In this document: one piece after another, positions 1 to 8,916 of the stretch
Layout of the letters: each line of letters begins with the position of its first letter
Numbering within the stretch: the first letter of the stretch is position 1
Assembly (NCBI GenBank): GCA_001777015.1
Contig: MFCV01000044.1
Location: 16,786 to 80,785, forward strand
Length of the DNA: 64,000 nucleotides
Direction: 5' to 3'
DNA from: Candidatus Daviesbacteria bacterium RIFCSPHIGHO2_02_FULL_36_13
GTDB taxonomy: Bacteria; Patescibacteriota; Microgenomatia; Daviesbacterales; UBA10151
The notes under the pieces: model-generated
What the model saw: the letters and a program-made list of their open reading frames with translations, nothing else
What the model was told of the DNA's origin: nothing
Databases searched by the model: none
Position numbers and translations under genes: made by a program

Positions 1-221
1 TTCTGTAAAATTAACTGAGGCATTGGCATTCTCTTTTAGAACTTTTTCAATTCCGGCTTCAGCCGCAGAAAAAGCCCTACCTGATTGCTCTACCCTGGTG
101 GCAGTTGATAAATCTACCAAACTTTTTTGAACAACAGAAACTCCCATAGCCAGGGCAACAGACATTATTAAAATAAGAACAAGTACTGCTTGTCCGCTAT
201 TTTTTAAATCTTTTTTCATAA

Positions 222-881
222 TTAACGTAATCCAATTGATGTATTGAAAGTTTCAGAATCAATTGCACCAATTATTCCTGAGTAAGCTTGCGTGTTAGCT
301 CTTACTGTAAATTTTACCGTTACTATATCTTTATACCCGGGAGCAGAATCTATTGTAAAGGAGCCATTTATTACAGACACTCCTGTCGCCTGATTCACAT
401 CGACTAAAGTATTTGGAGACACTAGAGGATTGCCGTCTGTACATACTCTATTTTTAAAGTCTTTACTTGTCTCATCATCTCCTGTTTCCGGACTATCCTG
501 ATAAATTCTATTTGAGTCAAATCGATATCTGGTATAAACTCCACCCTTAACAACTATGAGTGTGGTGTTACTTCCACTGGTGCAAACTACATTATCTGAA
601 TTTCTAACAGTCTTATCTATTGTTTCTAAAACTGCCTGACCATTTTTTTTGATTTGCGAAAGAATTTGAGCTCTATTATTACCCCTCAAAGAACTGGTAA
701 GAATATACAGAACTAAAATGCCGGTCACAGACAAAACAGCTATTACTACCAAAAGCTCCATAAGGGTGAAACCCTTTGAAGCTCTGCTTATAAGGGTGAA
801 ACCATTTGAAGCTCTGCTTATAAGGGTGAAACCCTTTGAAGCTCTGCTTATAAGGGTGAAACCATTTTTTTTCATCATCAT
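222..881 (-). CDS. Type IV pilin/pseudopilin-like protein with an unusually long leader containing three tandem copies of a GFTLISRAS(K/N) unit before the GFTLMELLVVIAVL class III signal
   Basis: N-terminal KGFTLMELLVVIAVLS matches the prepilin peptidase cleavage/methylation motif (G|FTLxE). The preceding 30 codons are a 3x tandem repeat of the cleavage-site region lacking Glu5. First of four tandem pilin-like genes. Confidence 0.6.
   Translation of the reverse strand: MMMKKNGFTLISRASKGFTLISRASNGFTLISRASKGFTLMELLVVIAVLSVTGILVLYILTSSLRGNNRAQILSQIKKNGQAVLETIDKTVRNSDNVVCTSGSNTTLIVVKGGVYTRYRFDSNRIYQDSPETGDDETSKDFKNRVCTDGNPLVSPNTLVDVNQATGVSVINGSFTIDSAPGYKDIVTVKFTVRANTQAYSGIIGAIDSETFNTSIGLR
761..869. 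repeat. 30-bp tandem repeat x3.6 (TAAGGGTGAAACC[C/A]TTTGAAGCTCTGCT) inside the 5' end of the first pilin gene
   Basis: Read directly from the sequence. It encodes the repeated GFTLISRAS(K/N) leader units. Confidence 0.9.
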
Positions 882-1435
882 AATTTTCTAAGTATTGTTG
901 TTAGCTGAGATTGATGACAAAAAGGTATTGACCCGCAGGAAAAGTCTGTCCATTGCACAACTATTGTAATTTTCTTTTCATATAGGTAGAGAGATTGAGC
1001 ATCTGGGAAAGAATCTTCTATCCTAATTTGCCTTCTAAAGGGTTCTACATTATTTATTTCAAAAGTTGTGCTTGTTACTTTTACCAATTGGTTGTTTTCA
1101 AATCTAAAATAGCAGGGTCCATCACCGTCTGCATTATTACAATAGTTTCTTGATAAGAATACACTATAAAGTTCTGAAAAAATATTAACATTTCTAACAG
1201 GATCAGATCCAGGGTAGGGGACATCAGTTGTAATGACACTATCTCTATCTCTCATGCTTCTAACTTTTTCTATCGCCTCCTGAGCAAGTTTTGTGGCCTT
1301 AGATTGATTTTGTGCAAGCTCGGCATTTCTAATAGAAGAAATTGTTGCAAAGGAAAAAGCTCCTAAAATAAGTCCAACAACAGCAATCACTACTATCAGC
1401 TCCAGCAGACTTTGACCTTTTTGATTACTCAACAT
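878..1435 (-). CDS. Type IV pilin-like protein (N-terminal methylation motif)
   Basis: N-terminus MLSNQKGQSLLELIVVIAVVGLILG has a short basic leader, G|Q, Glu5 and a hydrophobic helix. Start overlaps stop of the upstream pilin gene by 4 bp. Confidence 0.6.
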   Translation of the reverse strand: MLSNQKGQSLLELIVVIAVVGLILGAFSFATISSIRNAELAQNQSKATKLAQEAIEKVRSMRDRDSVITTDVPYPGSDPVRNVNIFSELYSVFLSRNYCNNADGDGPCYFRFENNQLVKVTSTTFEINNVEPFRRQIRIEDSFPDAQSLYLYEKKITIVVQWTDFSCGSIPFCHQSQLTTILRKL

Positions 1436-2018
1436 TTATTTGACCCCCTGTGGATACTCTTATATTTTTTCTAATGCTTGTGGTACCTCTTTCATATTTT
1501 ATCTCCACAATGAATCTGGCAATAGGAATTGCAGCAGGAATTACATCAGGATCAGGACACTGTGCAAAGTCACCTTTTGCCAAAATAAGAGTGGGCTTAC
1601 CATAAAGGGTACTGTAGCTTGTGGTAGCAGTGTAGGCTGATTGGGCAGCAAAGTTTGTACTTGTACAAATTGATCCTCCTGAAGAATCAAAGGCTGTTAT
1701 AGTATTAATAGTGACACCCTCAGGCAGAGTCAGGGGAGGGGATTTTTCTACATCGCCTGATTGGGTCTCACAAAATAAGGACAGAGTTTTTTTATCAGTA
1801 TTAAATCTGACTGACCAATTGAAACAAGTACTGTTGTTGTGTATTACTGAGGCTGTGGCATTGGTTTGGGCAGCCCGCAAAAGACTTTGGATCTTATTGA
1901 CTCCATCAGTTAAAATTTGATTTGAGGAAAAAGAAACATAATTTGCATACCCGATAGTGCCTAGAATAGCCATGATTGCAATAACCACCAAAACTTCAAC
2001 GAGAGTGTAGCCTTTCAT
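1425..2018 (-). CDS. Type IV pilin/pseudopilin-like protein
   Basis: N-terminus MKGYTLVEVLVVIAIMAILGTIG has the class III signal peptide with Glu5 (G|YTLVE). Confidence 0.6.
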   Translation of the reverse strand: MKGYTLVEVLVVIAIMAILGTIGYANYVSFSSNQILTDGVNKIQSLLRAAQTNATASVIHNNSTCFNWSVRFNTDKKTLSLFCETQSGDVEKSPPLTLPEGVTINTITAFDSSGGSICTSTNFAAQSAYTATTSYSTLYGKPTLILAKGDFAQCPDPDVIPAAIPIARFIVEIKYERGTTSIRKNIRVSTGGQINVE

Positions 2019-2019
2019 T

Positions 2020-2553
2020 TTAGGGAACTGTTAATTCAAAATCATATGTTACTGAACCACTGGTTTGATCTGCACAAGCCGCAAGCAGAGATGTTTTATT
2101 TTCCATTTTGGCATATAGACAATAGGAGGTGCAGTTCGCAGGATTATTACAATCAGCTGGGGATGGCACATATTGATAGGGCGGATAATTTGAGGTAATG
2201 GGATCTGCTGGTAAAGATTGCGAGTAGGTTTTCGTCCCTCCTGAATTTCTCAATGCACAACCCATCCGAAACTTGCCATCATCAACTGACGGAGTTGCGG
2301 GACAGCTTCCTGTGCCTAAAACAGGATAATATAGCTGATCAGCGAAATATTGTTCTAAAGCAGGTTGAATGTGAGTAGCTAAATCTGCTTGTCTTTTTGA
2401 ATCTCTGCTATTTTTTAAAACAGTAGAGTAGATGGTCATACCTAAGGTTGCTAAAATGGCCACTATAGACATCACAACCAGAAGTTCAACAAGAGTAAAC
2501 CCGCGGACAGTTAATTTAGGCATTACAATCATTATATAATATCTTGGATGCAA
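2020..2553 (-). CDS. Type IV pilin-like protein; the true start is probably the internal Met giving MPKLTVRGFTLVELLVVMSIVAIL (about 2523)
   Basis: RGFTLVELLVVMSIVAILATLG is a prepilin motif. The longest-ORF extension MHPRYYIMIV is probably spurious. Confidence 0.6.
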   Translation of the reverse strand: MHPRYYIMIVMPKLTVRGFTLVELLVVMSIVAILATLGMTIYSTVLKNSRDSKRQADLATHIQPALEQYFADQLYYPVLGTGSCPATPSVDDGKFRMGCALRNSGGTKTYSQSLPADPITSNYPPYQYVPSPADCNNPANCTSYCLYAKMENKTSLLAACADQTSGSVTYDFELTVP

Positions 2554-4146
2554 AAAATATTCCTTTTAGGACTGCTACTTCTCTCTCTTCTACTTTTTAA
2601 GAATCCATTCTCCTCAAACAATATTATTTCCAATTTAGAACCATCTCCTGATTCTATTCACTACCTAAACCCTGTGAAAAGTTTCACTGAGGGCAAAGGA
2701 CTTAATATTTCATATCAGGATAGAATAATACCTGCTCATGTCCCACCTCTTTATAGTTTAATTATCACTCCCTTTTATCTACTAACTTCCGACATAAGAT
2801 CTTTCTATTTTACTAACATTATTCTTGCTCTTATTTCCGCCATTTTATTTTTTAAAATTGTAACAGGAATTTTTAAAAGCAGAACAATTTCAATTCTTCT
2901 TTACCTATCGTTTTGCGCAAATTTAATCGTTTTTCTTTATCCATCCTTTGCCATGGCAGAAAACTTACTCATGACCCTTTATCTTTTATCAATTTGGCTG
3001 CTGATTAGACCGCCAACCCAAAAAACTGTCATTGCTTTATCATTTTTGGCAGTGGCGTTTTTTGCTACCAAATACGTGGCCTGGATTTTAAGTTTATCTT
3101 TAATTTTTATCACTTCTTTTATTGTTATTAAAAAAGCAAAGCATTTAACCTTAATATTGTTTTCATCTTTGATATGTTTTTTCTTAACCTATGTATCCAT
3201 TGAATATCTAACAAAAGGGTTAAATATCTTTGAAAGAATTACTGGTTCAATACCTGATGTATTTAGAGTATTTCAATCATTTTTCCAAACAGTTCCTAGT
3301 AATTTACCTAGGGAATTCTTTTCAAAAAATTATTTTGAAAATAACTTTATCCGCTTTTTGGGTGGTATCACAGGCGGACCTGCTGTGGTTGCAGGGGCCC
3401 ATTTTGTTATTTTACCAATTACTGTTGGGATGGTGTCTATCTTTGCAATCTTTTTAAATTTATTAAGCCCCAAAAATAGAATTCTAAGTTTTTATTTTTT
3501 TATTTCAATTTTGGCAACCATATATTACATCAGCACCTTTTTTGTAGCCGACTCCAGATACTTACTAGAATTTATTCCCGGCTTTTTAATTATCTTTGGT
3601 CTTTTTTTAGAAAGAGTCTGCAATTTTTTATACAAAATAAAAAGAGAAGTATATGCATATATTCTTTTAATCTTTTGTTGGATTTCTATTTTTTTTAACA
3701 CAACACCTGCTGTAGTAAATCAAATTAAAATTAATTTTTTTGGAACAGGAAAATCTGGAAATTACGAGGCCATCGAAACTATGAATAAATTTACCAATAA
3801 ATTGGAAGGCTCCAATAAACCAATTATTATATCTGTTTTATCGCCATATCAGATTGACTTTTTTTCAAATAAAAAATACGATTTGTTGCCCATTTCCAAA
3901 CAGCAATATTTCATCCCCAGCAGTCAAAACGTCTGGGGAATTGATTTGCAAAATTACTCTCTTTCGGACATTTATAAAGGCTTTTTAGAAAAAGGGAGAA
4001 GGGTTTATGTTTCAAATTATTTAACAGGGGAAAAATATTGGTATAAATTTGACCTTTTAAAAATTAAAGAAAACTTTAATCTAATATCTGTTTTTGACGG
4101 ATGCAGTAATCAATGCTCTGTCTATGAACTTAAACTCAAAAATTAG
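2548..4146 (+). CDS. Polytopic integral membrane protein with a C-terminal soluble domain; possibly a GT-C-type (ArnT/PMT-like) glycosyltransferase or pilus-associated membrane protein
   Basis: 532 aa with more than 10 predicted hydrophobic helices followed by a ~150 aa soluble tail. It sits between the pilin genes and pilD. The family assignment is a guess from architecture only. Confidence 0.35.
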   Translation: MQKIFLLGLLLLSLLLFKNPFSSNNIISNLEPSPDSIHYLNPVKSFTEGKGLNISYQDRIIPAHVPPLYSLIITPFYLLTSDIRSFYFTNIILALISAILFFKIVTGIFKSRTISILLYLSFCANLIVFLYPSFAMAENLLMTLYLLSIWLLIRPPTQKTVIALSFLAVAFFATKYVAWILSLSLIFITSFIVIKKAKHLTLILFSSLICFFLTYVSIEYLTKGLNIFERITGSIPDVFRVFQSFFQTVPSNLPREFFSKNYFENNFIRFLGGITGGPAVVAGAHFVILPITVGMVSIFAIFLNLLSPKNRILSFYFFISILATIYYISTFFVADSRYLLEFIPGFLIIFGLFLERVCNFLYKIKREVYAYILLIFCWISIFFNTTPAVVNQIKINFFGTGKSGNYEAIETMNKFTNKLEGSNKPIIISVLSPYQIDFFSNKKYDLLPISKQQYFIPSSQNVWGIDLQNYSLSDIYKGFLEKGRRVYVSNYLTGEKYWYKFDLLKIKENFNLISVFDGCSNQCSVYELKLKN

Positions 4147-4888
4147 GAAAACGTAAATACCAGTTTAAAATATTAGTTCCCCAAAAAAGGGAGATTAAAC
4201 TAGCTAAAACTAAAAATGGACCAAATGGAATTACCTGACCAAACTTTTTCTTTTTTAAAATTATTAAGGCAACTGCAAAAATAGCTCCTGAAAAGAAAGA
4301 GAGCATAAGAGCCAGAATTCCATTTGGAAATCCCAGCCCAAGTCCTAAAAACATTCCCAACTTAACATCTCCGCCTCCCATGCCTTTGCCGCGGGTTATA
4401 ATTATTAAAATCAGAAAAAATCCTGCTATTACAAGTCCTGTTAGAAGAGAATCTAAAAAGTAATTATCAAAAATCATAAGATAAATAAGAGAAATTCCAA
4501 TTGATGGCAAGATTATAGAATCCGGAATAAGCATTTCTTTTAAATCTGTTAAGAAAATAATCCCTAAAATTGTTATGAAAAAGACATGAAAAATTAGACT
4601 TGGGGAAATTATTGGATTTAGGAAAAATAGCAGTCCTGTTAAAATTCCCATCCCAATTTCTACTAAAGGATACTCTATGCCAATTCTACTTTTGCAATAT
4701 CTACATTTCCCACCCAAAACAAAATAAGAAAGGATGGGTATAAGATCAAACCAAACCAGGGATTTTTTACACTTAGGACAATACGACCGCCCAGAAAAAG
4801 TTTCTTCTCTTAGGCTCCTATCAGCAAGAGCCTTAACAAGACTTCCTAAAATTGTACCTATCAAAAATCCAAAAAAGGCTGGAATCAT
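4136..4888 (-). CDS. pilD: Prepilin peptidase (A24 family, PilD)
   Basis: N-terminal CPKC...CRYC zinc-binding tetracysteine motif, polytopic membrane body, and the conserved GGGDVKL-like region. Lies next to pilC/pilT/pilB. Confidence 0.85.
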   Translation of the reverse strand: MIPAFFGFLIGTILGSLVKALADRSLREETFSGRSYCPKCKKSLVWFDLIPILSYFVLGGKCRYCKSRIGIEYPLVEIGMGILTGLLFFLNPIISPSLIFHVFFITILGIIFLTDLKEMLIPDSIILPSIGISLIYLMIFDNYFLDSLLTGLVIAGFFLILIIITRGKGMGGGDVKLGMFLGLGLGFPNGILALMLSFFSGAIFAVALIILKKKKFGQVIPFGPFLVLASLISLFWGTNILNWYLRFPNF

Positions 4889-6088
4889 TTATATTGATGT
4901 AGTGAGCTGATATATTGGCAATAGAATTGAGATTGCCAAAAATGCCACTCCCAGTCCTAAAACAACAAATATCAAAGGTTCTATAGCCACAGTTAAATTT
5001 TTAACCAGGTGATCTGATTCTGATTCAAAATATTGAGCCAGTTTAAAAAATATTTCATCAACTTTACCTGTTTCTTCTCCAACTTTAACCATTTGGCTAA
5101 CTATTTTTGGAAAATTTTCTTGAGTTAGAAGTAAAGATAAAGGCAGTCCTTTTTCAACTCCAGCATAAGCATCTTTTAAAGCACTTTTAAAAACTTTATT
5201 TTCAGTTAAAGAAGAGACTATGGCAATTGATTCCAAAAGGGGAATGCCAGCAGATATTAAAAGTCCAAAGGTTCTGGTGAAGTTTGTCAAAATTACAGAG
5301 GTGATTATTTTTCCAATAATAGGCAATTTTAAAAGCAGTTTTGAGACAAAATAACTTCCTTCTTCTGTTTTCATCCACTTATTTAAAGAAAGTCTTCCTG
5401 CAGTAATGATTATTAATCCTACCCACCAAAAGTTAATAAACAAGTTGGAAGAACCTATTAGAATTTTTGTTGGGAGAGGTAAGTCAATCGCTGATTCCTT
5501 ATATAAATCGGTTAATTTCGGGATAACAAATACCATCATAATAATAATGACCACTATCATAAGAGCGATAATAACCATAGGATAAATCATTGCTCCTTTT
5601 ATCCTGGCCTGAAATTCTCTTTCTTTTTCTAAATTATCCGCCATTTGAGTTAGCACCTGATCCAGCTTTCCTGATTCTTCACCGCTTTTAACTAAATTTA
5701 CATAAAGATTTGGGAAAATCTGAGGGTGCTTTCCTAAAGCTTGTGCCAGAGCCAATCCTCCTTTAACATCCTGGGAAATTTCAGATAAAGCCTTTTTTAA
5801 AACTTTATTTGTCTGTTGTTCTTCTAAGATATCTATAGCCTCTGATAAAACTAAACCACTGGAAATCATTGTAGCTAGTTGTCTTGTGATAACAACTAAG
5901 GTTGAAAAATTAATCCCGCTTGTAAATTTGGCTAGAAATCTGTTTATTGCTGGTTCTTTGTTATCAACTGAAATAACAATCAATCCTTTTTTTCTTAAGG
6001 TTGTTACAGCTGAGTGTGCATCATTGGCTTCAATAGTGCCTTTTTTTTCTTCACCATCAGGACTTTTAGCTAGGTATTTAAATTCCAT
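4889..6088 (-). CDS. pilC: Type IV pilus assembly platform protein PilC (GspF family)
   Basis: 399 aa with two repeated GspF-like domains and three TM segments (for example GKLDQVLTQMADNLEKE and GKVDEIFFKLAQYFESE repeats). Confidence 0.85.
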   Translation of the reverse strand: MEFKYLAKSPDGEEKKGTIEANDAHSAVTTLRKKGLIVISVDNKEPAINRFLAKFTSGINFSTLVVITRQLATMISSGLVLSEAIDILEEQQTNKVLKKALSEISQDVKGGLALAQALGKHPQIFPNLYVNLVKSGEESGKLDQVLTQMADNLEKEREFQARIKGAMIYPMVIIALMIVVIIIMMVFVIPKLTDLYKESAIDLPLPTKILIGSSNLFINFWWVGLIIITAGRLSLNKWMKTEEGSYFVSKLLLKLPIIGKIITSVILTNFTRTFGLLISAGIPLLESIAIVSSLTENKVFKSALKDAYAGVEKGLPLSLLLTQENFPKIVSQMVKVGEETGKVDEIFFKLAQYFESESDHLVKNLTVAIEPLIFVVLGLGVAFLAISILLPIYQLTTSI

Positions 6089-6089
6089 A

Positions 6090-7142
6090 TCATTCCACCA
6101 ATTTATTCAGAAGTTCGGGTCGGAGAGTATATTTTAGAGCCACTTCCTGAGAAATTTGTCCTGTTTTAATTAACTCAGCTAAAGACTTTTCTAAAAGCTG
6201 CATTCCAAAACCAGCTGAGGTTTCTATCATATTATCTAAAAGATAAGTTTTCTTTTCCCGGATGACATTTCTAACAGCAGGAGTTGCAAATAAAATTTCC
6301 GATGCTAAAATTCTGCCTGGTTGAATAGTTGGTATAAGTCTAAGAGATAAAATAGCTTCTAAAGTTGATGCTAACTGAAGCCTAATTTGAGGCTGCTGCT
6401 CCTCTGGAAATACATCAATAATACGGTCAATTGACTGAGCGGCAGAATTTGTATGAAGAGTAGCAAAAACTAGATGGCCAGTCTCTGCAATAGTCATGGC
6501 TGAAGAAATTGTTTCAAAATCACGCATTTCACCAACCAAAACAACATCCGGATCTTCCCTTAACACTGCCCTTAAAGCATTATTCCAGGACCTTGTATCC
6601 TTATACATTTCTCTTTGTTCAATCAAAGATTTTCCTTTGGGGTATACATACTCAATAGGATCCTCAACTGTCACAACATGTACAGCTCTTTCCTGATTAA
6701 TTTTATCAATAAATGAAGCTAAGACTGTAGATTTTCCATGACCTGTCGGACCTGTCACTAAAACAAATCCCTGCTTAATTTCTGTTAATTTAGTAACCAC
6801 TTCAGGAAGACCTAAACTTTTTAAAGGCGGGATGGCAAATGGAATTAATCTTAAAGAGGCTGCACTATGACCTTTTTGTCTGTAAATATTAGCTCTAAAT
6901 CTGGCCTTACCTTCATAATCAAAAGAAAAATCTACTTCATAATTTTGATTATAAATGTTTTTTTGAATTTCAGAGAGGAGGGGAAAGATTAAACTTTCTA
7001 CCTGTTCCTGAGTGGAGGGAACTTCCCCTGGGACAGGTATAAGATCTCCATGAATACGCAAAATTGGAGGAAATCCAACTGAAATATGTAAATCAGAAGC
7101 ATTTCTTTGGACTGTTAGTTCTAATAATTGTTGTATGTTCAT
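6090..7142 (-). CDS. pilT: Twitching motility retraction ATPase PilT
   Basis: Walker A GPTGHGKST, Asp box, and a PilT-type C-terminal region. Its 350 aa length is typical of PilT. Confidence 0.85.
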   Translation of the reverse strand: MNIQQLLELTVQRNASDLHISVGFPPILRIHGDLIPVPGEVPSTQEQVESLIFPLLSEIQKNIYNQNYEVDFSFDYEGKARFRANIYRQKGHSAASLRLIPFAIPPLKSLGLPEVVTKLTEIKQGFVLVTGPTGHGKSTVLASFIDKINQERAVHVVTVEDPIEYVYPKGKSLIEQREMYKDTRSWNNALRAVLREDPDVVLVGEMRDFETISSAMTIAETGHLVFATLHTNSAAQSIDRIIDVFPEEQQPQIRLQLASTLEAILSLRLIPTIQPGRILASEILFATPAVRNVIREKKTYLLDNMIETSAGFGMQLLEKSLAELIKTGQISQEVALKYTLRPELLNKLVE

Positions 7143-7197
7143 AATTTTGTTCCTTCAAAATTTCAAGGTCCTGTGATGAGCAGGTTCTTATATAATC

Positions 7198-8916
7198 TTA
7201 ATCCTGTGCCACCCTTAGAACTTCTTCCATTGTTGTAACCCCCTCTAGCACTTTTAAATATCCATCCTGCTTCATTGTAATCATGCCAGAAGCCACTGCT
7301 GAAGCTTCTATATCTCCGCTTGATGCATGCTCCATCACCAGTTTTGTAATAGCATCTGTCATAATTAAAACCTCAAAAATTCCAATTCTTCCTAGATAGC
7401 CTGTATTGGCGCAAAACTTACATCCCTGTCCTTTATATAGTTTAAGAATGGCACTCTGATTGGCGGGTATAAAGTTTTTCAATACAGCTTTTATATTTTC
7501 TGTAACTTCAGGAGAGGCATTAAATTCCACCCTGCAGTGAGCACAAATTTTTCTTACCACTCTTTGAGCTAGAGCAGCATATAAAGAAGATGCTAAAAGA
7601 AATGGTTCAACTCCCATATCCAAAAGCCTGGGTGGAGCACCTGCAGCAGAATTTGTATGGAGAGTAGAAAAAACCTGATGACCTGTAAGAGCTGCCTGTA
7701 TGGCTAAATCTGCAGTTTCTGTATCACGAATTTCTCCTACAAATATAATATTCGGATCCTGTCTTAAAAAGGATCTTAAAGCAGATGCAAAAGTTAGTCC
7801 AACAGCAGCATTAACTTGCACCTGGTTTACCCCTGGAATCTGATATTCAACAGGATCCTCAATTGTGACAACATTAACCTTAGTGGTAGAAATTTTGGAA
7901 AGAACAGAATAAAGAGTAGTTGTTTTACCAGATCCTGTGGGGCCGCATACTAAAATAATACCGTGTGTTCTAAGCATTTGAGACTCTAGGGATTTAAATT
8001 GGGCACCTCTTAATCCCAGTTCTAAAAGAGTTGGGGCAGATGTGGATTTAGGCAAAAGTCTCATAACTACTTTTTCTCCATGCACTGTAGGGATAGTGGA
8101 CACACGTAAATCTACAGATTCTGAACCGGAAGTAAATGTAAAACGCCCATCCTGAGGAAGTCTTTTTTCATCTATTTTTAGGGTAGATAAAATCTTAATT
8201 CTGGAAACTAAAGCATCATGAACCCCTTTTGGCAGCAAGATCTTTTCCTGCAAAATCCCATCTATTCTGTATCTGACCCTGGTTCTATTTTCCTGAGGCT
8301 CAATATGAATATCGGAAGCACGGACTTTGACAGCATATTCCAAAAGCTCATTTATAATATTAGATACAGGAGCTTCTCTTACAACCTCAGGTCCAGCAGC
8401 TACCGCTTCTTCCGGCTTAACTGCCTGAACCTCTCTTAATGCAGAGGTAACCTCTGAAGTTAAATTTTGTGAATACTGATCATTAATTGCTTTTATAATA
8501 TCTTCAGGCAAAGCCAAATACGGCCTTACCCTAAGCCCTGATCTTTTCTCAATAAATTGGATAATTTGAATATCTAAAGGATCTTCCATAGCCACCCAAA
8601 GCTCATCACCTGTTTTCTCAAAAGGGATAGTTTTATAGCGGCGGGCGGCTGGCTCAGGAACCAAACTTAAAATATCAGCAGCTATTGCCTTACCTTCCAG
8701 TTTTATAAAAGGAACATTTAAAATTTGAGCTTTGGCTTGAGTAATTTTATCCTGGGGGACTAAATTATGCTGCAGTATCAGTTGATCAATTGTTGTTCCT
8801 GAATTTAAGCTTTCCTGCTTTAAAGCTGAAATTTGATCCCCGGTTAAAAGACCTTGTTTAGAAAGAATCTCTTCAATTGTATCGCCACTTGGAGCAGAAG
8901 CCGTGGTTTTGGGCAT
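7198..8916 (-). CDS. pilB: Type IV pilus assembly ATPase PilB (GspE family)
   Basis: Walker A GPTGSGKTTTLY and a C-terminal tetracysteine CAHC...CKFC. 572 aa with N-terminal GspE_N-like domains. Confidence 0.85.
   Translation of the reverse strand: MPKTTASAPSGDTIEEILSKQGLLTGDQISALKQESLNSGTTIDQLILQHNLVPQDKITQAKAQILNVPFIKLEGKAIAADILSLVPEPAARRYKTIPFEKTGDELWVAMEDPLDIQIIQFIEKRSGLRVRPYLALPEDIIKAINDQYSQNLTSEVTSALREVQAVKPEEAVAAGPEVVREAPVSNIINELLEYAVKVRASDIHIEPQENRTRVRYRIDGILQEKILLPKGVHDALVSRIKILSTLKIDEKRLPQDGRFTFTSGSESVDLRVSTIPTVHGEKVVMRLLPKSTSAPTLLELGLRGAQFKSLESQMLRTHGIILVCGPTGSGKTTTLYSVLSKISTTKVNVVTIEDPVEYQIPGVNQVQVNAAVGLTFASALRSFLRQDPNIIFVGEIRDTETADLAIQAALTGHQVFSTLHTNSAAGAPPRLLDMGVEPFLLASSLYAALAQRVVRKICAHCRVEFNASPEVTENIKAVLKNFIPANQSAILKLYKGQGCKFCANTGYLGRIGIFEVLIMTDAITKLVMEHASSGDIEASAVASGMITMKQDGYLKVLEGVTTMEEVLRVAQD

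What the first reader, a model, noticed from the sequence alone, without database searches (positions are those of the whole stretch)
222..881. Pilin with a triplicated leader/cleavage-site module
The first pilin begins MMMKKN followed by GFTLISRASK, GFTLISRASN, GFTLISRASK and then the canonical GFTLMELLVVIAVL. The 40-aa leader is built from three 30-bp tandem DNA repeats (761-869) that copy the G|FTL prepilin peptidase site but lack the essential Glu5. Prepilin leaders are normally 5-10 aa. The repeated pseudo-sites could act as decoys or modulate PilD processing. The repeat is also a potential slipped-strand expansion/contraction site. All units are in-frame 30-mers, so leader length rather than on/off state would vary.
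Basis: seen in the sequence. Interest (0 to 1): 0.55.

Follow-up and report, generated by a model that had tools for sequence, protein, structure and literature searches.

The report
Copy-number-variable repeat in a prepilin leader
A minor pilus-subunit gene of an uncultivated groundwater bacterium (Candidatus Daviesbacteria) carries, in the part of the protein that is cut off before assembly, a 30-base hairpin-forming repeat that copies the cutting site and is present in one, two or three copies in otherwise identical natural strains.

Summary
ORF 222-881 (-) encodes MMMKKN + 3 x GFTLISRAS(K/N) + the one true prepilin site G|FTLMELLVV. It is built from three in-frame 30-bp units (863-774) plus a 14-bp partial copy. 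The leader is 37 aa, not 40.

Natural strains that are 99.9-100% identical in >2 kb of flanks carry 1, 2 or 3 units, and one carries an extra 45-bp duplication. No 0-copy allele was found.

The unit is more than a copied cleavage site. It is a direct repeat of the G-F-T(-L) codons flanking a small imperfect palindrome, and each unit forms a hairpin. The same layout (9-bp GGNTTYACN repeat plus palindrome, often a 30-bp period) recurs with different sequences in orthologous and paralogous pilin leaders of other Daviesbacteria. Every case seen is in frame from the conserved start.

Best reading: a mutational hotspot, probably hairpin or template-switch duplication followed by slippage. It sits in the one coding segment that tolerates it, because PilD removes the leader.

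A regulatory role for the hairpins, or a PilD-decoy role, is untested. Glu5 is not needed for cleavage, so its absence is not what disqualifies the pseudo-sites.

Verdict: new variant of a known kind, moderate interest.

The parts
222..881 (-). Prepilin (minor pilin / GspH-like pseudopilin) ORF, 219 aa; stop codon TAA at 224-222
   Evidence: Pfam N_methyl E=3.5e-10 at residues 33-57; TIGR02532; 1187 homologues, almost all from Microgenomates/Daviesbacteria
873..881 (-). ATG ATG ATG start region. The first ATG (881-879) overlaps the TGA stop (880-878) of the upstream pilin-like gene, an ATGA junction
   Evidence: The start sits at the same junction, behind an AAGGAG/AAGAAA-like motif, in orthologues whether their leader is short or long
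865..872 (-). A8 homopolymer (Lys-Lys-Asn codons) between the start and the array; identical in all alleles seen
834..863 (-). Repeat unit 1, GGTTTCACCCTTATAAGCAGAGCTTCAAAG (GFTLISRASK)
804..833 (-). Repeat unit 2, same sequence but ending AAT (GFTLISRASN). The G-to-T change puts a mismatch in its hairpin stem
774..803 (-). Repeat unit 3 (GFTLISRASK)
756..773 (-). The one genuine prepilin-peptidase site, GGT TTC ACC CTT ATG GAG = G(-1) F1 T2 L3 M4 E5. Its first 14 nt are the partial fourth copy of the repeat
708..770 (-). Hydrophobic N-terminal helix of the mature pilin, FTLMELLVVIAVLSVTGILVL
   Evidence: aligned with the invariant G, F, T, L, E columns of 24 orthologues
771..857 (-). Three 27-nt hairpins, ACCCTT-AT-AAGC-AGA-GCTT-CA-AAGGGT, at 857-831, 827-801 (one mismatch) and 797-771. 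Each joins the T-L codons of one site copy to the K-G codons of the next. Perfect 15-nt palindromes AAGGGTTTCACCCTT (K-G-F-T-L codons) lie at 836-822 and 776-762
   Evidence: RNA -41.5 kcal/mol, z=-3.4; DNA z=-3.5 and -4.0; single module z=-3.55
878..1435 (-). Upstream pilin-like gene (leader MLSNQKG|QSLLE), translationally coupled to the repeat-bearing gene
1425..2553 (-). Two further pilin-like genes (1425-2018, MKG|YTLVE; 2020-2553, ...MPKLTVRG|FTLVE) with ordinary leaders
4136..4888 (-). Prepilin peptidase (PilD-like), the enzyme expected to remove the leader
   Evidence: Pfam A24_N_bact E=1.2e-23 and Peptidase_A24 E=8.5e-16
4889..8916 (-). PilC-like platform protein (4889-6088), PilT-like ATPase (6090-7142) and PilB-like ATPase (7198-8916): the rest of the type IV pilus operon
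   Evidence: Pfam T2SSF, T2SSE, MshEN
1..219 (-). Start of the next gene, PilX_N-like, 2 nt after the pilin stop. It is followed by pilM/N/O-like genes in the strain contigs

Best explanation
This is a hypermutable, in-frame tandem array inside the leader-coding segment of a minor type IV pilin gene in a Candidatus Daviesbacteria (CPR) pilus operon.

Each 30-bp unit has two parts. One is a direct repeat of the cleavage-site codons: G-F-T at 9 bp, and here G-F-T-L plus AT at 14 bp. The other is a short imperfect palindrome, so every unit forms a hairpin with its neighbour's site codons.

I infer the following origin. A founding insertion arose by a hairpin or template-switch type duplication at the self-complementary K-G-F-T-L codons (AAGGGTTTCACCCTT). 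The resulting direct repeats then expand and contract by replication slippage or unequal recombination.

This gives 1-3 copies in present-day populations.

Translation starts at the ATG that overlaps the upstream gene's stop and reads through the array. That produces a basic 17-, 27- or 37-aa leader. PilD is expected to cut only after the last Gly, the only one followed by the hydrophobic helix with Glu5. All alleles should therefore yield the same mature pilin.

The array persists because the leader is the one part of this tightly packed operon where extra in-frame, non-hydrophobic, positively charged sequence costs little. Any effect of copy number on expression or processing is secondary and unproven.

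Shown: the array, the copy-number polymorphism, the hairpin potential, the frame conservation and the recurrence in relatives. Inferred: the mutational mechanism, the cleavage site used and the near-neutrality.
For: (1) The array and a single true signal are present.

(2) The 90%-identity cluster of this protein contains 1-copy (P0121, P0123, P0125), 2-copy (P0124) and 3-copy (P0001, P0122, P0127, P0128) alleles. P0126 has an extra 15-aa duplication. The mature parts are identical apart from one substitution in P0128.

(3) At the DNA level the 1-copy loci L006/L007 and the L010 variant have 0 mismatches to the window in about 2.3 kb of flanks. The 2-copy loci have 3. The array therefore mutates far faster than the background.

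(4) The K/N marker pattern is K for 1 copy, N,K for 2 copies and K,N,K for 3 copies. This needs at least two separate events.

(5) The 45-bp duplication in L010 starts exactly at the first base of the 15-nt palindrome, with no microhomology at its borders. The palindrome therefore looks like a breakpoint hotspot.

(6) Hairpins fold significantly better than shuffles.

(7) The same design appears with other sequences in L012 (three genes), L014, L026, L132, L133, L135 and L136, and in proteins P0133, P0147, P0242 and P0265. Nine of 11 modules fold with z<=-2.3. Five aligned 39-nt modules share one helix register, 78% paired against 24-40% when the partner is slid.

(8) A duplicated G-x-T in the leader occurs in 8 of 215 Daviesbacteria-like pilin N-termini and 0 of 95 generic metagenome pilins.

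(9) All 16 extended leaders among 38 species representatives stay open and in frame from the conserved junction ATG. The two apparent exceptions (P0035, P0103) were mis-called starts. Of 23 extended leaders, 21 are net positive, and the window's is +7. This fits a translated cytoplasmic leader.

(10) Gly-1 is the critical determinant, and leaders of up to about 30 aa are processed in other systems (PMC4471445).

(11) The right hairpin arm GCTTCA-AAGGGT resembles the reverse complement of the local ACCCTTATGGAGC, matching 11 of 13 by my own reading. A template switch would leave this trace (PMC8794818).
Against: No 0-copy allele was seen. The next-best hit in a 5.8-billion-protein search is only 54% identical. 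That could mean at least one unit is selected for, not merely tolerated.

Hairpins recur at this position in many lineages. One element's variable dinucleotide covaries with the local site codons (L031 versus L023). Both points hint at selection on pairing.

The same 21-bp palindrome occurs with its loop in both orientations in different genes and genomes (L012-2549 and P0020 versus L014-613 and P0133). Purely local slippage explains this poorly.

The template-switch origin rests on a short, statistically weak similarity.

No protein, transcript or read-level data exist for start site, cleavage site or within-population heterogeneity.
Confidence: 0.6

Rival explanations
1. Regulatory hairpin rheostat. 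The hairpins, as RNA (translation or mRNA stability of this pilin and the downstream pilX/pilMNO genes) or as DNA, are the selected feature. Copy number tunes minor-pilin output as in a contingency locus. The coding capacity is only the price of sitting in a gene-dense operon.
For: Predicted stability of the leader RNA rises with copy number: -13.2, -19.8 and -32.6 kcal/mol for 1, 2 and 3 units. Hairpins are found at this position in many orthologues with unrelated sequences: 6 perfect hairpins with stems of 8 bp or more in this orthologue's leader zones against 1.3 expected, P=0.002, a post hoc test. Pairing geometry is shared among the modules, with two-sided differences at 5 stem positions. 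L031 and L023 covary with the local codons. No 0-copy allele was seen.
Against: There is no Rfam match and no terminator-like site. The start codon region stays unpaired in the predicted folds. Unit 2 carries a stem-breaking G-to-T change. Hairpins are not significantly enriched across all pilin leader zones (13 of 74 against 12.1% expected, p=0.11). Most orthologues (65-78%) have plain short leaders, so the hairpin is not required for the gene's function. Two of 11 modules do not fold better than shuffles.
Confidence: 0.15
2. The repeated G|FTL pseudo-sites act as decoys or extra substrates for PilD. They would slow or grade maturation of this minor pilin according to copy number.
For: Each unit keeps Gly followed by FTL. 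Glu5 is not required for cleavage (PMC4471445), so cleavage at pseudo-sites cannot be excluded on sequence alone. Copy number does vary.
Against: Pseudo-sites are followed by polar ISRASK, not by the hydrophobic tract that places the scissile bond at the membrane-embedded peptidase. One strain has F-to-L in a pseudo-site. In relatives the duplicated part is often only G-F-T, or degenerate (GFN, GFS, VYT), while the palindrome is kept. Conservation therefore follows the DNA design, not a peptidase motif. Only one N_methyl match is detected.
Confidence: 0.08
3. Footprint or copy of a tiny target-specific mobile palindromic element (REP- or MITE-like). It would insert into the symmetric 9-bp target GGTNNNACC, which the G-F-T codons of pilin genes happen to supply. 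That would duplicate the target (a 9-bp target-site duplication), and later slippage would make the array.
For: The module splits into a 9-bp direct repeat plus a 21-bp palindrome, 30 bp in all, in the window, L012, L014 and L133; L132 has the 9+21 layout but its insert is not a centred palindrome. The same palindrome ACGTTCA-N7-TGAACGT occurs in different paralogues and genomes with the loop in both orientations, and nested once. L031 and L023 share CGAAGTGCCAA..TGAATACT in non-orthologous pilin genes, each next to a duplicate of its own local codons. An 82-bp hairpin in L048 is flanked by 9-bp G[A/G]ATTAACC repeats.
Against: The window's 21-mer has no other copy in 64 kb even with 3 mismatches allowed, and none in any of the 139 fetched loci apart from the strain variants of this same gene. 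Family-A palindromes were found only in pilin leaders in about 220 kb of relatives. In the window the direct repeat is 14 bp, not 9, so the supposed insert would by coincidence begin with the 5 nt that follow the target. No transposase is linked. Gene conversion between the near-identical 5' ends of paralogues could spread an insert.
Confidence: 0.12
4. The repeats are not translated. Initiation would occur downstream, for example at the in-frame ATA of the last unit behind the SD-like AAAGGG, giving a canonical MSRASKG|FTLMELL leader. The array would then be an intercistronic spacer.
For: There is no ATG, GTG or TTG in frame inside the array, but each unit has AAAGGG about 10 nt before an in-frame ATA. 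The resulting 7-aa leader would look typical.
Against: ATA is a very poor start codon. The upstream ATG sits at the conserved stop-start junction used by all orthologues. All array variants (30, 60, 90 and +45 bp) and all 16 extended leaders in relatives preserve frame and lack stops. Their peptides are net positive. None of this would be expected for an untranslated spacer.
Confidence: 0.04
5. Assembly or sequencing artefact of a short repeat.
For: Metagenome assemblers can mis-count tandem repeats.
Against: The array is about 104 bp, below read length. Identical 3-copy sequence was recovered by different assemblers and projects, and each allele was recovered on several contigs: 7, 6 and 3 contigs for the exact 3-, 1- and 2-copy sequences.
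Confidence: 0.01

Closest known systems
Class III (prepilin) signal peptides with long leaders, e.g. type IVb pilins (TcpA, BfpA, CofA, R64 PilS) and Flp pilins
   Same: A hydrophilic, basic leader ends in Gly and is followed by a hydrophobic helix with Glu5. A dedicated A24 peptidase is encoded nearby. Published leader lengths reach about 26-30 aa (PMC4471445).
   Different: Here the extra length is not a family trait. It is a recent, polymorphic insertion of 1-3 identical modules that each repeat the cleavage motif. At 37 aa it exceeds the published range. The gene belongs to a type IVa-like operon (pilBTCD, pilMNO) whose orthologues mostly have 3-6-aa leaders.
In-frame intragenic tandem repeats (coding VNTRs or contingency loci) in bacterial surface and pilus genes, e.g. 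the small-basic-repeat copy-number variation in Neisseria PilQ (from my own knowledge)
   Same: High-identity tandem units whose length is a multiple of 3. Copy number differs between otherwise identical strains. The presumed mechanism is slipped-strand mispairing or unequal recombination.
   Different: The variable part is removed from the mature protein. Variation therefore cannot change the surface-exposed product. It can only affect precursor length or mRNA/DNA structure.
Palindromic elements inserted in frame in protein-coding genes (Rickettsia palindromic elements; MITEs within ORFs; MITE review PMC10969869)
   Same: Hairpin-forming DNA sits inside an ORF, keeps the frame and is tolerated in a permissive segment. 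Related inserts are seen in several genes and genomes, in both orientations.
   Different: The elements here are far smaller (16-21 bp against about 100-150 bp). The window's element is single-locus. No evidence of dispersal outside pilin leaders was found.
Template-switch mutations that create perfect hairpins in one step (Monttinen & Loytynoja 2022, PMC8794818)
   Same: A new stem whose arm looks like an inverted copy of adjacent sequence, next to a direct duplication. Imperfect inverted-repeat arms can be homogenised by the same process.
   Different: That work concerns rRNA and eukaryotic genomes. Here the product lies in a bacterial signal-peptide coding region and has then been amplified in tandem. 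The inverted-copy similarity is short (11 of 13) and not statistically strong.

Membership tests
Type IV pilin / class III signal peptide (applied to the fourth, true site) | Gly at -1 ending a hydrophilic leader | tested here: met
   G37, leader net charge +7
Type IV pilin / class III signal peptide (applied to the fourth, true site) | About 21 mainly hydrophobic residues after the cleavage site, interrupted by Glu5 | tested here: met
   FTLMELLVVIAVLSVTGILVL; Pfam N_methyl 39.4 bits against a cut-off of 21.2; TIGR02532 29.1 against 16.3
Type IV pilin / class III signal peptide (applied to the fourth, true site) | Dedicated A24 prepilin peptidase and assembly genes in the genome | tested here: met
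   PilD-, PilC-, PilT- and PilB-like genes at 4136-8916; pilM/N/O-like genes downstream in strain contigs
Type IV pilin / class III signal peptide (applied to the fourth, true site) | Actual cleavage after Gly and N-methylation of Phe1 | not testable with these tools
   Needs mass spectrometry or processing assays
Functional prepilin-peptidase site (applied to the three upstream GFTL copies) | Gly-1 immediately followed by the membrane-spanning hydrophobic tract | tested here: not met
   G|FTLISRAS(K/N): only 4 apolar residues, then polar and basic ones. There is no second N_methyl match. Lack of Glu5 is not itself disqualifying (PMC4471445).
Coding VNTR / contingency-type repeat | High-identity head-to-tail units | tested here: met
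   3.6 copies, 96% matches, no indels
Coding VNTR / contingency-type repeat | Copy number differs among near-identical strains | tested here: met
   1, 2 or 3 units, plus a 45-bp variant, with 0-4 mismatches over the 1.2-3.9 kb compared (0-3 in about 2.4 kb for the 1- and 2-copy and 45-bp-variant loci)
Coding VNTR / contingency-type repeat | Copy number changes phenotype or expression | not testable with these tools
   Only predicted RNA stability changes
REP/MITE-like mobile palindromic element | Terminal or whole-element inverted repeat | tested here: met
   CTT-AT-AAGC-AGA-GCTT-CA-AAG, an imperfect palindrome; z=-3.55 with flanks
REP/MITE-like mobile palindromic element | Flanking target-site duplication | tested here: inconclusive
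   Direct repeats of 9-14 bp flank the palindrome, but a tandem or template-switch duplication gives the same picture
REP/MITE-like mobile palindromic element | Multiple dispersed copies in the genome | tested here: not met
   No other copy in the 64-kb window with up to 3 mismatches, and none in other loci. The whole genome was not available.
Known structured RNA family / intrinsic terminator | Match to a curated covariance model, or a GC-rich stem plus U-tract | tested here: not met
   0 Rfam hits at E<=1 in 1-3000; no terminator-like site in the array

The most novel reading that the evidence does not exclude
The hairpin-plus-duplicated-cleavage-site module would not be an accident of one gene. 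It would be a lineage-wide, actively generated or selected feature of Daviesbacteria prepilin genes. Two versions are possible. In the first, a miniature palindromic element specifically targets the symmetric GGTNNNACC formed by the G-F-T codons. In the second, an RNA or DNA hairpin pairs with the cleavage-site codons, and its copy number acts as a heritable, rapidly reversible dial on minor-pilin supply, and hence on pilus priming, in these episymbiotic ultrasmall bacteria. Either way, the cleaved leader peptide would serve as a coding 'parking lot' for nucleic-acid-level signals in genomes with almost no intergenic space.
Probability: 0.2. Interest if true: 0.7.

Novelty: new variant of a known kind. 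Interest (0 to 1): 0.5.

Why it matters
Type IV pili are central to how CPR/Patescibacteria attach to and take up DNA from their hosts, yet their regulation is essentially unknown.

This locus is a natural allelic series (1, 2 and 3 units, plus a 45-bp variant) in otherwise identical genomes. It can be used directly to test three things: how leader length and pseudo-sites affect prepilin-peptidase processing, whether 5'-coding hairpins tune expression inside overlapping-gene operons, and how hairpins are born and amplified in bacterial coding DNA.

It also has a practical side. Between 22% and 35% of this pilin family carries extended, repeat- or hairpin-derived leaders. These can confuse start-codon calling and signal-peptide predictors.

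If the effect is only mutational, the locus is still a clean example of cleaved signal sequences acting as sinks for structural mutations in streamlined genomes.

Tried and rejected
(1) An exact-match scan of metagenome contigs with the 34-nt true-site sequence found 0 hits. That collection apparently lacks these contigs, so it gave no extra alleles.

(2) The search for related loci on metagenome contigs returned only generic pilin N-termini, because one search pattern was the universal GFTLxE motif. I used these loci only as a control set.

(3) A leader-only protein search with the 40-aa repeat peptide found no candidates, because of the word-index limit. Whether 'ISRASK' units exist in other proteins is therefore untested beyond the 90% cluster.

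(4) P0035 and P0103, whose calls start at M4 (MELL...), looked like possible out-of-frame insertions. Their DNA shows ordinary short leaders, MKQRG|STLMELL and MRKG|FTLMEIL, so they are mis-called starts.

(5) A general claim that all pilin leader zones are hairpin hotspots is not supported (13 of 74 hairpins against 12.1% of sequence, p=0.11). Enrichment holds only for this orthologue's zone and is post hoc.

(6) A crude DNA 9-mer duplication scan had a poor downstream control (8 upstream against 7 downstream hits). I replaced it with the in-frame tripeptide test.

(7) Rfam and the promoter and terminator scans found nothing specific to the array.

(8) The + strand ORF 718-891 (57 aa, IRVKPFEALL repeats) is just the antisense reading of the array.

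(9) Literature searches found no report of repeated or copy-variable prepilin leaders, in CPR or elsewhere. The library is incomplete, so this is weak evidence of novelty.
Full report
**1. What is in the sequence**

On the minus strand, ORF 222-881 encodes a 219-aa protein. It begins MMMKKN, continues with GFTLISRASK, GFTLISRASN and GFTLISRASK, and then GFTLMELLVVIAVLSVTG....

Tandem Repeats Finder gives a 30-bp period with 3.6 copies, 96% matches and no indels (score 202, 760-867). This is the strongest array in the window. The 30-mer occurs exactly three times, at 863-834, 833-804 (one mismatch) and 803-774, against none in 100 shuffles. The next 14 nt (773-760) are a partial fourth copy and form the start of the genuine site GGT TTC ACC CTT ATG GAG.

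Only this last site matches the prepilin N-terminal models. Pfam N_methyl matches residues 33-57 at E=3.5e-10, and TIGR02532 matches residues 36-53. The leader is therefore 37 aa, not 40.

**2. Context**

The gene is the fourth of four pilin-like genes. They lie downstream of pilB-, pilT-, pilC- and pilD-like genes (7198-8916, 6090-7142, 4889-6088, 4136-4888). A PilX_N-like gene follows, and then pilM/N/O-like genes in the strain contigs.

Its first ATG overlaps the TGA stop of the preceding pilin-like gene. The other three pilins in the window have ordinary leaders: MKG|, MLSNQKG| and MPKLTVRG|.

Homologues are almost all from Candidatus Daviesbacteria / Microgenomates (CPR) metagenomes. Identical proteins are annotated as Daviesbacteria MAG proteins from the Rifle aquifer.

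**3. The copy number is polymorphic**

The 90%-identity cluster of this protein holds nine distinct sequences. Their mature parts are identical apart from one substitution in P0128, but their leaders differ:
- One unit: P0121, P0123, P0125.
- Two units: P0124.
- Three units: P0001, P0122, P0127, P0128.
- Three units plus a 15-aa duplication, KGFTLMELLVVIAVL: P0126.

I fetched the DNA. The flanks of the 1-copy loci L006 and L007 and of L010 have 0 mismatches to the window over about 2.3 kb. The 2-copy loci have 3 mismatches. The array therefore changes much faster than point substitutions accumulate.

The Lys/Asn marker is K in the 1-copy allele, N,K in the 2-copy allele and K,N,K in the 3-copy allele. 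This requires at least two separate events.

The 45-bp duplication in L010 begins exactly at the first base of the perfect 15-nt palindrome AAGGGTTTCACCCTT and has no microhomology at its borders.

No 0-copy allele exists in the protein database. The next-best hit is 54% identical.

Each allele was recovered on several contigs from different assemblers, which rules out an assembly artefact.

**4. The unit is a hairpin module, not just a copied motif**

The K-G-F-T-L codons AAG GGT TTC ACC CTT are self-complementary. Each unit reads ACCCTT-AT-AAGC-AGA-GCTT-CA-AAGGGT. This is a 6-bp outer stem between the T-L codons of one copy and the K-G codons of the next. It encloses a 4-bp inner stem.

These 27-nt hairpins lie at 857-831, 827-801 (one mismatch) and 797-771.

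Folding results:
- One 39-nt module folds at -12.4 kcal/mol (z=-3.55, 0 of 200 shuffles as good).
- The whole region folds at -41.5 kcal/mol as RNA (z=-3.4).
- As DNA the two strands give z=-3.5 and z=-4.0.
- Predicted stability of the leader RNA grows with copy number: -13.2, -19.8 and -32.6 kcal/mol for 1, 2 and 3 units.

There is no Rfam match and no terminator-like site.

**5. The same design recurs in relatives**

Most orthologues have 3-6-aa leaders such as MKKG|FTLVE. However, 27 of 120 close homologues have leaders of 10 aa or more. So do 16 of 38 GTDB species representatives and 51 of 146 50%-identity representatives.

A subset repeats the G-F-T codons:

| Source | Leader module |
|---|---|
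| P0020 / L012 | GFTTFMRTER-GFTL |
| P0133 | GFTTFSSHER-GFTL |
| P0110 / L133 | GFTTSSLHGR-GFTL |
| P0013 / L132 | GFTVRRTGSL-GFTL |

All four have a 10-aa (30-bp) period, like the window. Other periods occur in P0022, P0042, P0097, P0147, P0242, P0265 and L026. Paralogous pilins also carry such modules: L012-946, L012-1511, L014-613, L028-86, L031-1008, L044-804 and L023-4121.

At the DNA level these are 9-bp direct repeats GGNTTYACN flanking a palindrome. An example is GGTTTTACC-ACGTTCA-TGAGAAC-TGAACGT-GGTTTTACT.

Nine of 11 modules fold with z<=-2.3. Five aligned 39-nt modules, including the window's, share one helix register. In that register 78% of cells are paired, against 24-40% when the partner is slid, and 5 of the 10 stem positions show differences on both sides. 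These modules may not be homologous, so I treat this as shared architecture rather than evolutionary covariation.

A duplicated G-x-T tripeptide in the leader occurs in 8 of 215 Daviesbacteria-like pilin N-termini and in 0 of 95 generic metagenome pilins. From residue frequencies I estimate well under one would be expected by chance.

Other extended leaders encode longer hairpins or simple repeats (L021, L028, L031-L033, L044, L046).

**6. Are the repeats translated?**

The array contains no in-frame ATG, GTG or TTG. The only downstream option is a very weak ATA.

The following points support the upstream start:
- The upstream ATG sits at the stop-start junction conserved in orthologues, behind an AAGGAG/AAGAAA-like motif. 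This holds whether the leader is short or long.
- Every length variant seen (30, 60, 90 and +45 bp), and all 16 extended leaders of species representatives, keep the frame and lack stops.
- The two apparent exceptions were mis-called starts.
- 21 of 23 extended leaders are net positive, and the window's is +7. This fits a cytoplasmic leader under the positive-inside rule (PMC4471445).

I therefore take the 37-aa leader as real. This is inferred, not shown.

**7. Mechanism**

Shown: a hypermutable in-frame array of hairpin modules in the leader-coding segment.

Inferred: a founding duplication arose at the palindromic site codons. Slippage or unequal recombination between the 14-bp (later 30-bp) direct repeats followed. 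The changes are tolerated because PilD removes the leader.

The right hairpin arm GCTTCA-AAGGGT resembles the reverse complement of the local ACCCTTATGGAGC (GCTCCATAAGGGT), matching 11 of 13 by my own comparison. A template switch making a direct-inverted-direct structure would leave this trace, and such events are known to create hairpins in one step (PMC8794818). The similarity is short, so this step is only suggestive.

According to the literature, Gly-1 is the critical determinant for the peptidase and Glu5 is dispensable for processing (PMC4471445). So the pseudo-sites are not ruled out by lacking Glu5. They are ruled unlikely because no hydrophobic helix follows them.

One strain has F-to-L (TTC to TTA) in a pseudo-site. 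That is a hint that the pseudo-sites are not conserved as peptidase sites.

**8. Rivals**

- *Regulatory hairpin dial.* It is kept alive by the recurrence of hairpins at this position and by the lack of a 0-copy allele. It is also supported by covariation of one shared element with the local site codons. In L031, AAGGTGAAT pairs with ATTCACCTT. In L023, AAACTGA pairs with TCAGTTT. Against it, most orthologues lack any hairpin, unit 2 has a broken stem, and enrichment across all pilin leaders is not significant.
- *Miniature mobile element with a 9-bp target duplication at GGTNNNACC.* It is suggested by the same palindrome occurring in different genes and genomes in both loop orientations. Against it, the window's insert is single-copy in 64 kb, and no copies outside pilin leaders were seen.
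- *PilD decoy.* Untested and not favoured.
- *Downstream initiation and assembly artefact.* Both unlikely.

**9. Comparison with known things, and novelty**

The protein is a bona fide class III signal peptide protein. All sequence-level criteria are met for the last site.

The leader exceeds the published 6-26 (to about 30) aa range. It does so through a recent, polymorphic tandem insertion that copies the cleavage motif. I found no description of such a case, though the library is incomplete.

The phenomenon combines three known kinds: a coding VNTR, an in-frame palindromic insertion, and template-switch hairpin birth. It places them in a new setting, the cleaved prepilin leader of a CPR bacterium. 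I rate it a new variant of a known kind, of moderate interest.

It offers a ready-made natural allelic series for testing leader-length effects on prepilin processing and hairpin effects on expression. However, the most likely reading is a tolerated mutational hotspot rather than a new mechanism.

Noticed in passing
L010 1501-2205 (JGI 3300025323, Ga0209542_10003223); corresponds to window 732-776: One strain carries, besides the three units, an exact 45-bp tandem duplication AAGGGTTTCACCCTTATGGAGCTTTTGGTAGTAATAGCTGTTTTG. This gives two complete G|FTLME sites and two half-helices (protein P0126, 234 aa). The duplication starts exactly at the 15-nt palindrome and has no microhomology at its borders. 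It is probably a deleterious or transient variant that marks the palindrome as a breakpoint hotspot.
   Followed up: partly
window 2548-4146 (+): A 532-aa polytopic membrane protein is encoded on the opposite strand, between the pilin genes and pilD. It has no Pfam hit at E<=0.01, only a sub-threshold GT-C-like Glyco_transf_22 hint (E=0.13). It is conserved in place in the strain contigs. It could be a pilin glycosyltransferase, but this is untested.
   Followed up: partly
L038 950, 1472, 2516; also L025-909, L043-2519, proteins P0002, P0095, P0136, P0172: Three consecutive pilin genes of one operon share nearly the same leader, (M/V)..VYTE/DRSRSG|FTL. At the DNA level GTTTACACT (V-Y-T) looks like a degenerate copy of the GGTTTTACN (G-F-T) codons. 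This suggests spread of leader inserts among paralogues by gene conversion or repeated insertion.
   Followed up: partly
L012 2528-2548 vs L014 592-612; L012 about 1450-1511; proteins P0020 vs P0133: The 21-bp palindrome ACGTTCA-N7-TGAACGT occurs in pilin leaders of different genes and genomes. Its 7-nt loop appears in both orientations (TGAGAAC and GTTCTCA). It occurs once with a second hairpin nested in its loop (-33.3 kcal/mol, z=-8.6).
   Followed up: partly
L031 about 1008 and L023 about 4121: Two non-orthologous pilin genes in different genomes share the insert CGAAGTGCCAA-NN-TGAATACT. The variable dinucleotide (GG or AC) makes the insert complementary to each gene's own cleavage-site codons (ATTCACCTT or TCAGTTT).
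   Followed up: partly
L048 about 4423-4525: An 82-bp hairpin of GTCTAC/GGAAGTC-type short repeats is flanked by 9-bp direct repeats G[A/G]ATTAACC (G-L-T codons). The pilin's start codon appears to be supplied by the insert itself. Similar 'SVYRLPST...GSRKSED' hairpin-encoded leaders occur in L028, L030, L035 and P0096.
   Followed up: no
window 865-881 (-): An (ATG)3 run followed by an A8 homopolymer lies immediately before the array. Both are potential slippage tracts, and the A8 tract would shift the frame. The DNA is identical in every locus fetched. The protein records differ in the number of leading Met residues (MMM, MM, M), probably through different start calls.
   Followed up: partly
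L004 1514-2361 vs L001 3663-4562: In one 3-copy strain contig the PilX_N-like gene downstream of the pilin is called as 187 aa, followed by a gap, instead of 299 aa. This is a structural difference next to the locus.
   Followed up: no
L011-L043 record titles: Many GTDB 'binchicken' MAG records carrying clearly Daviesbacteria-like pilus operons are titled 'uncultured Gammaproteobacteria bacterium'. These record titles are unreliable for taxonomy.
   Followed up: no
proteins P0035, P0103 (L137 500, L138 484): Gene callers started these orthologues at Met4 of the mature pilin (MELLVV...), skipping the real short leaders MKQRG|STLMELL and MRKG|FTLMEIL. This illustrates how pilin starts are mis-annotated in this family.
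   Followed up: yes
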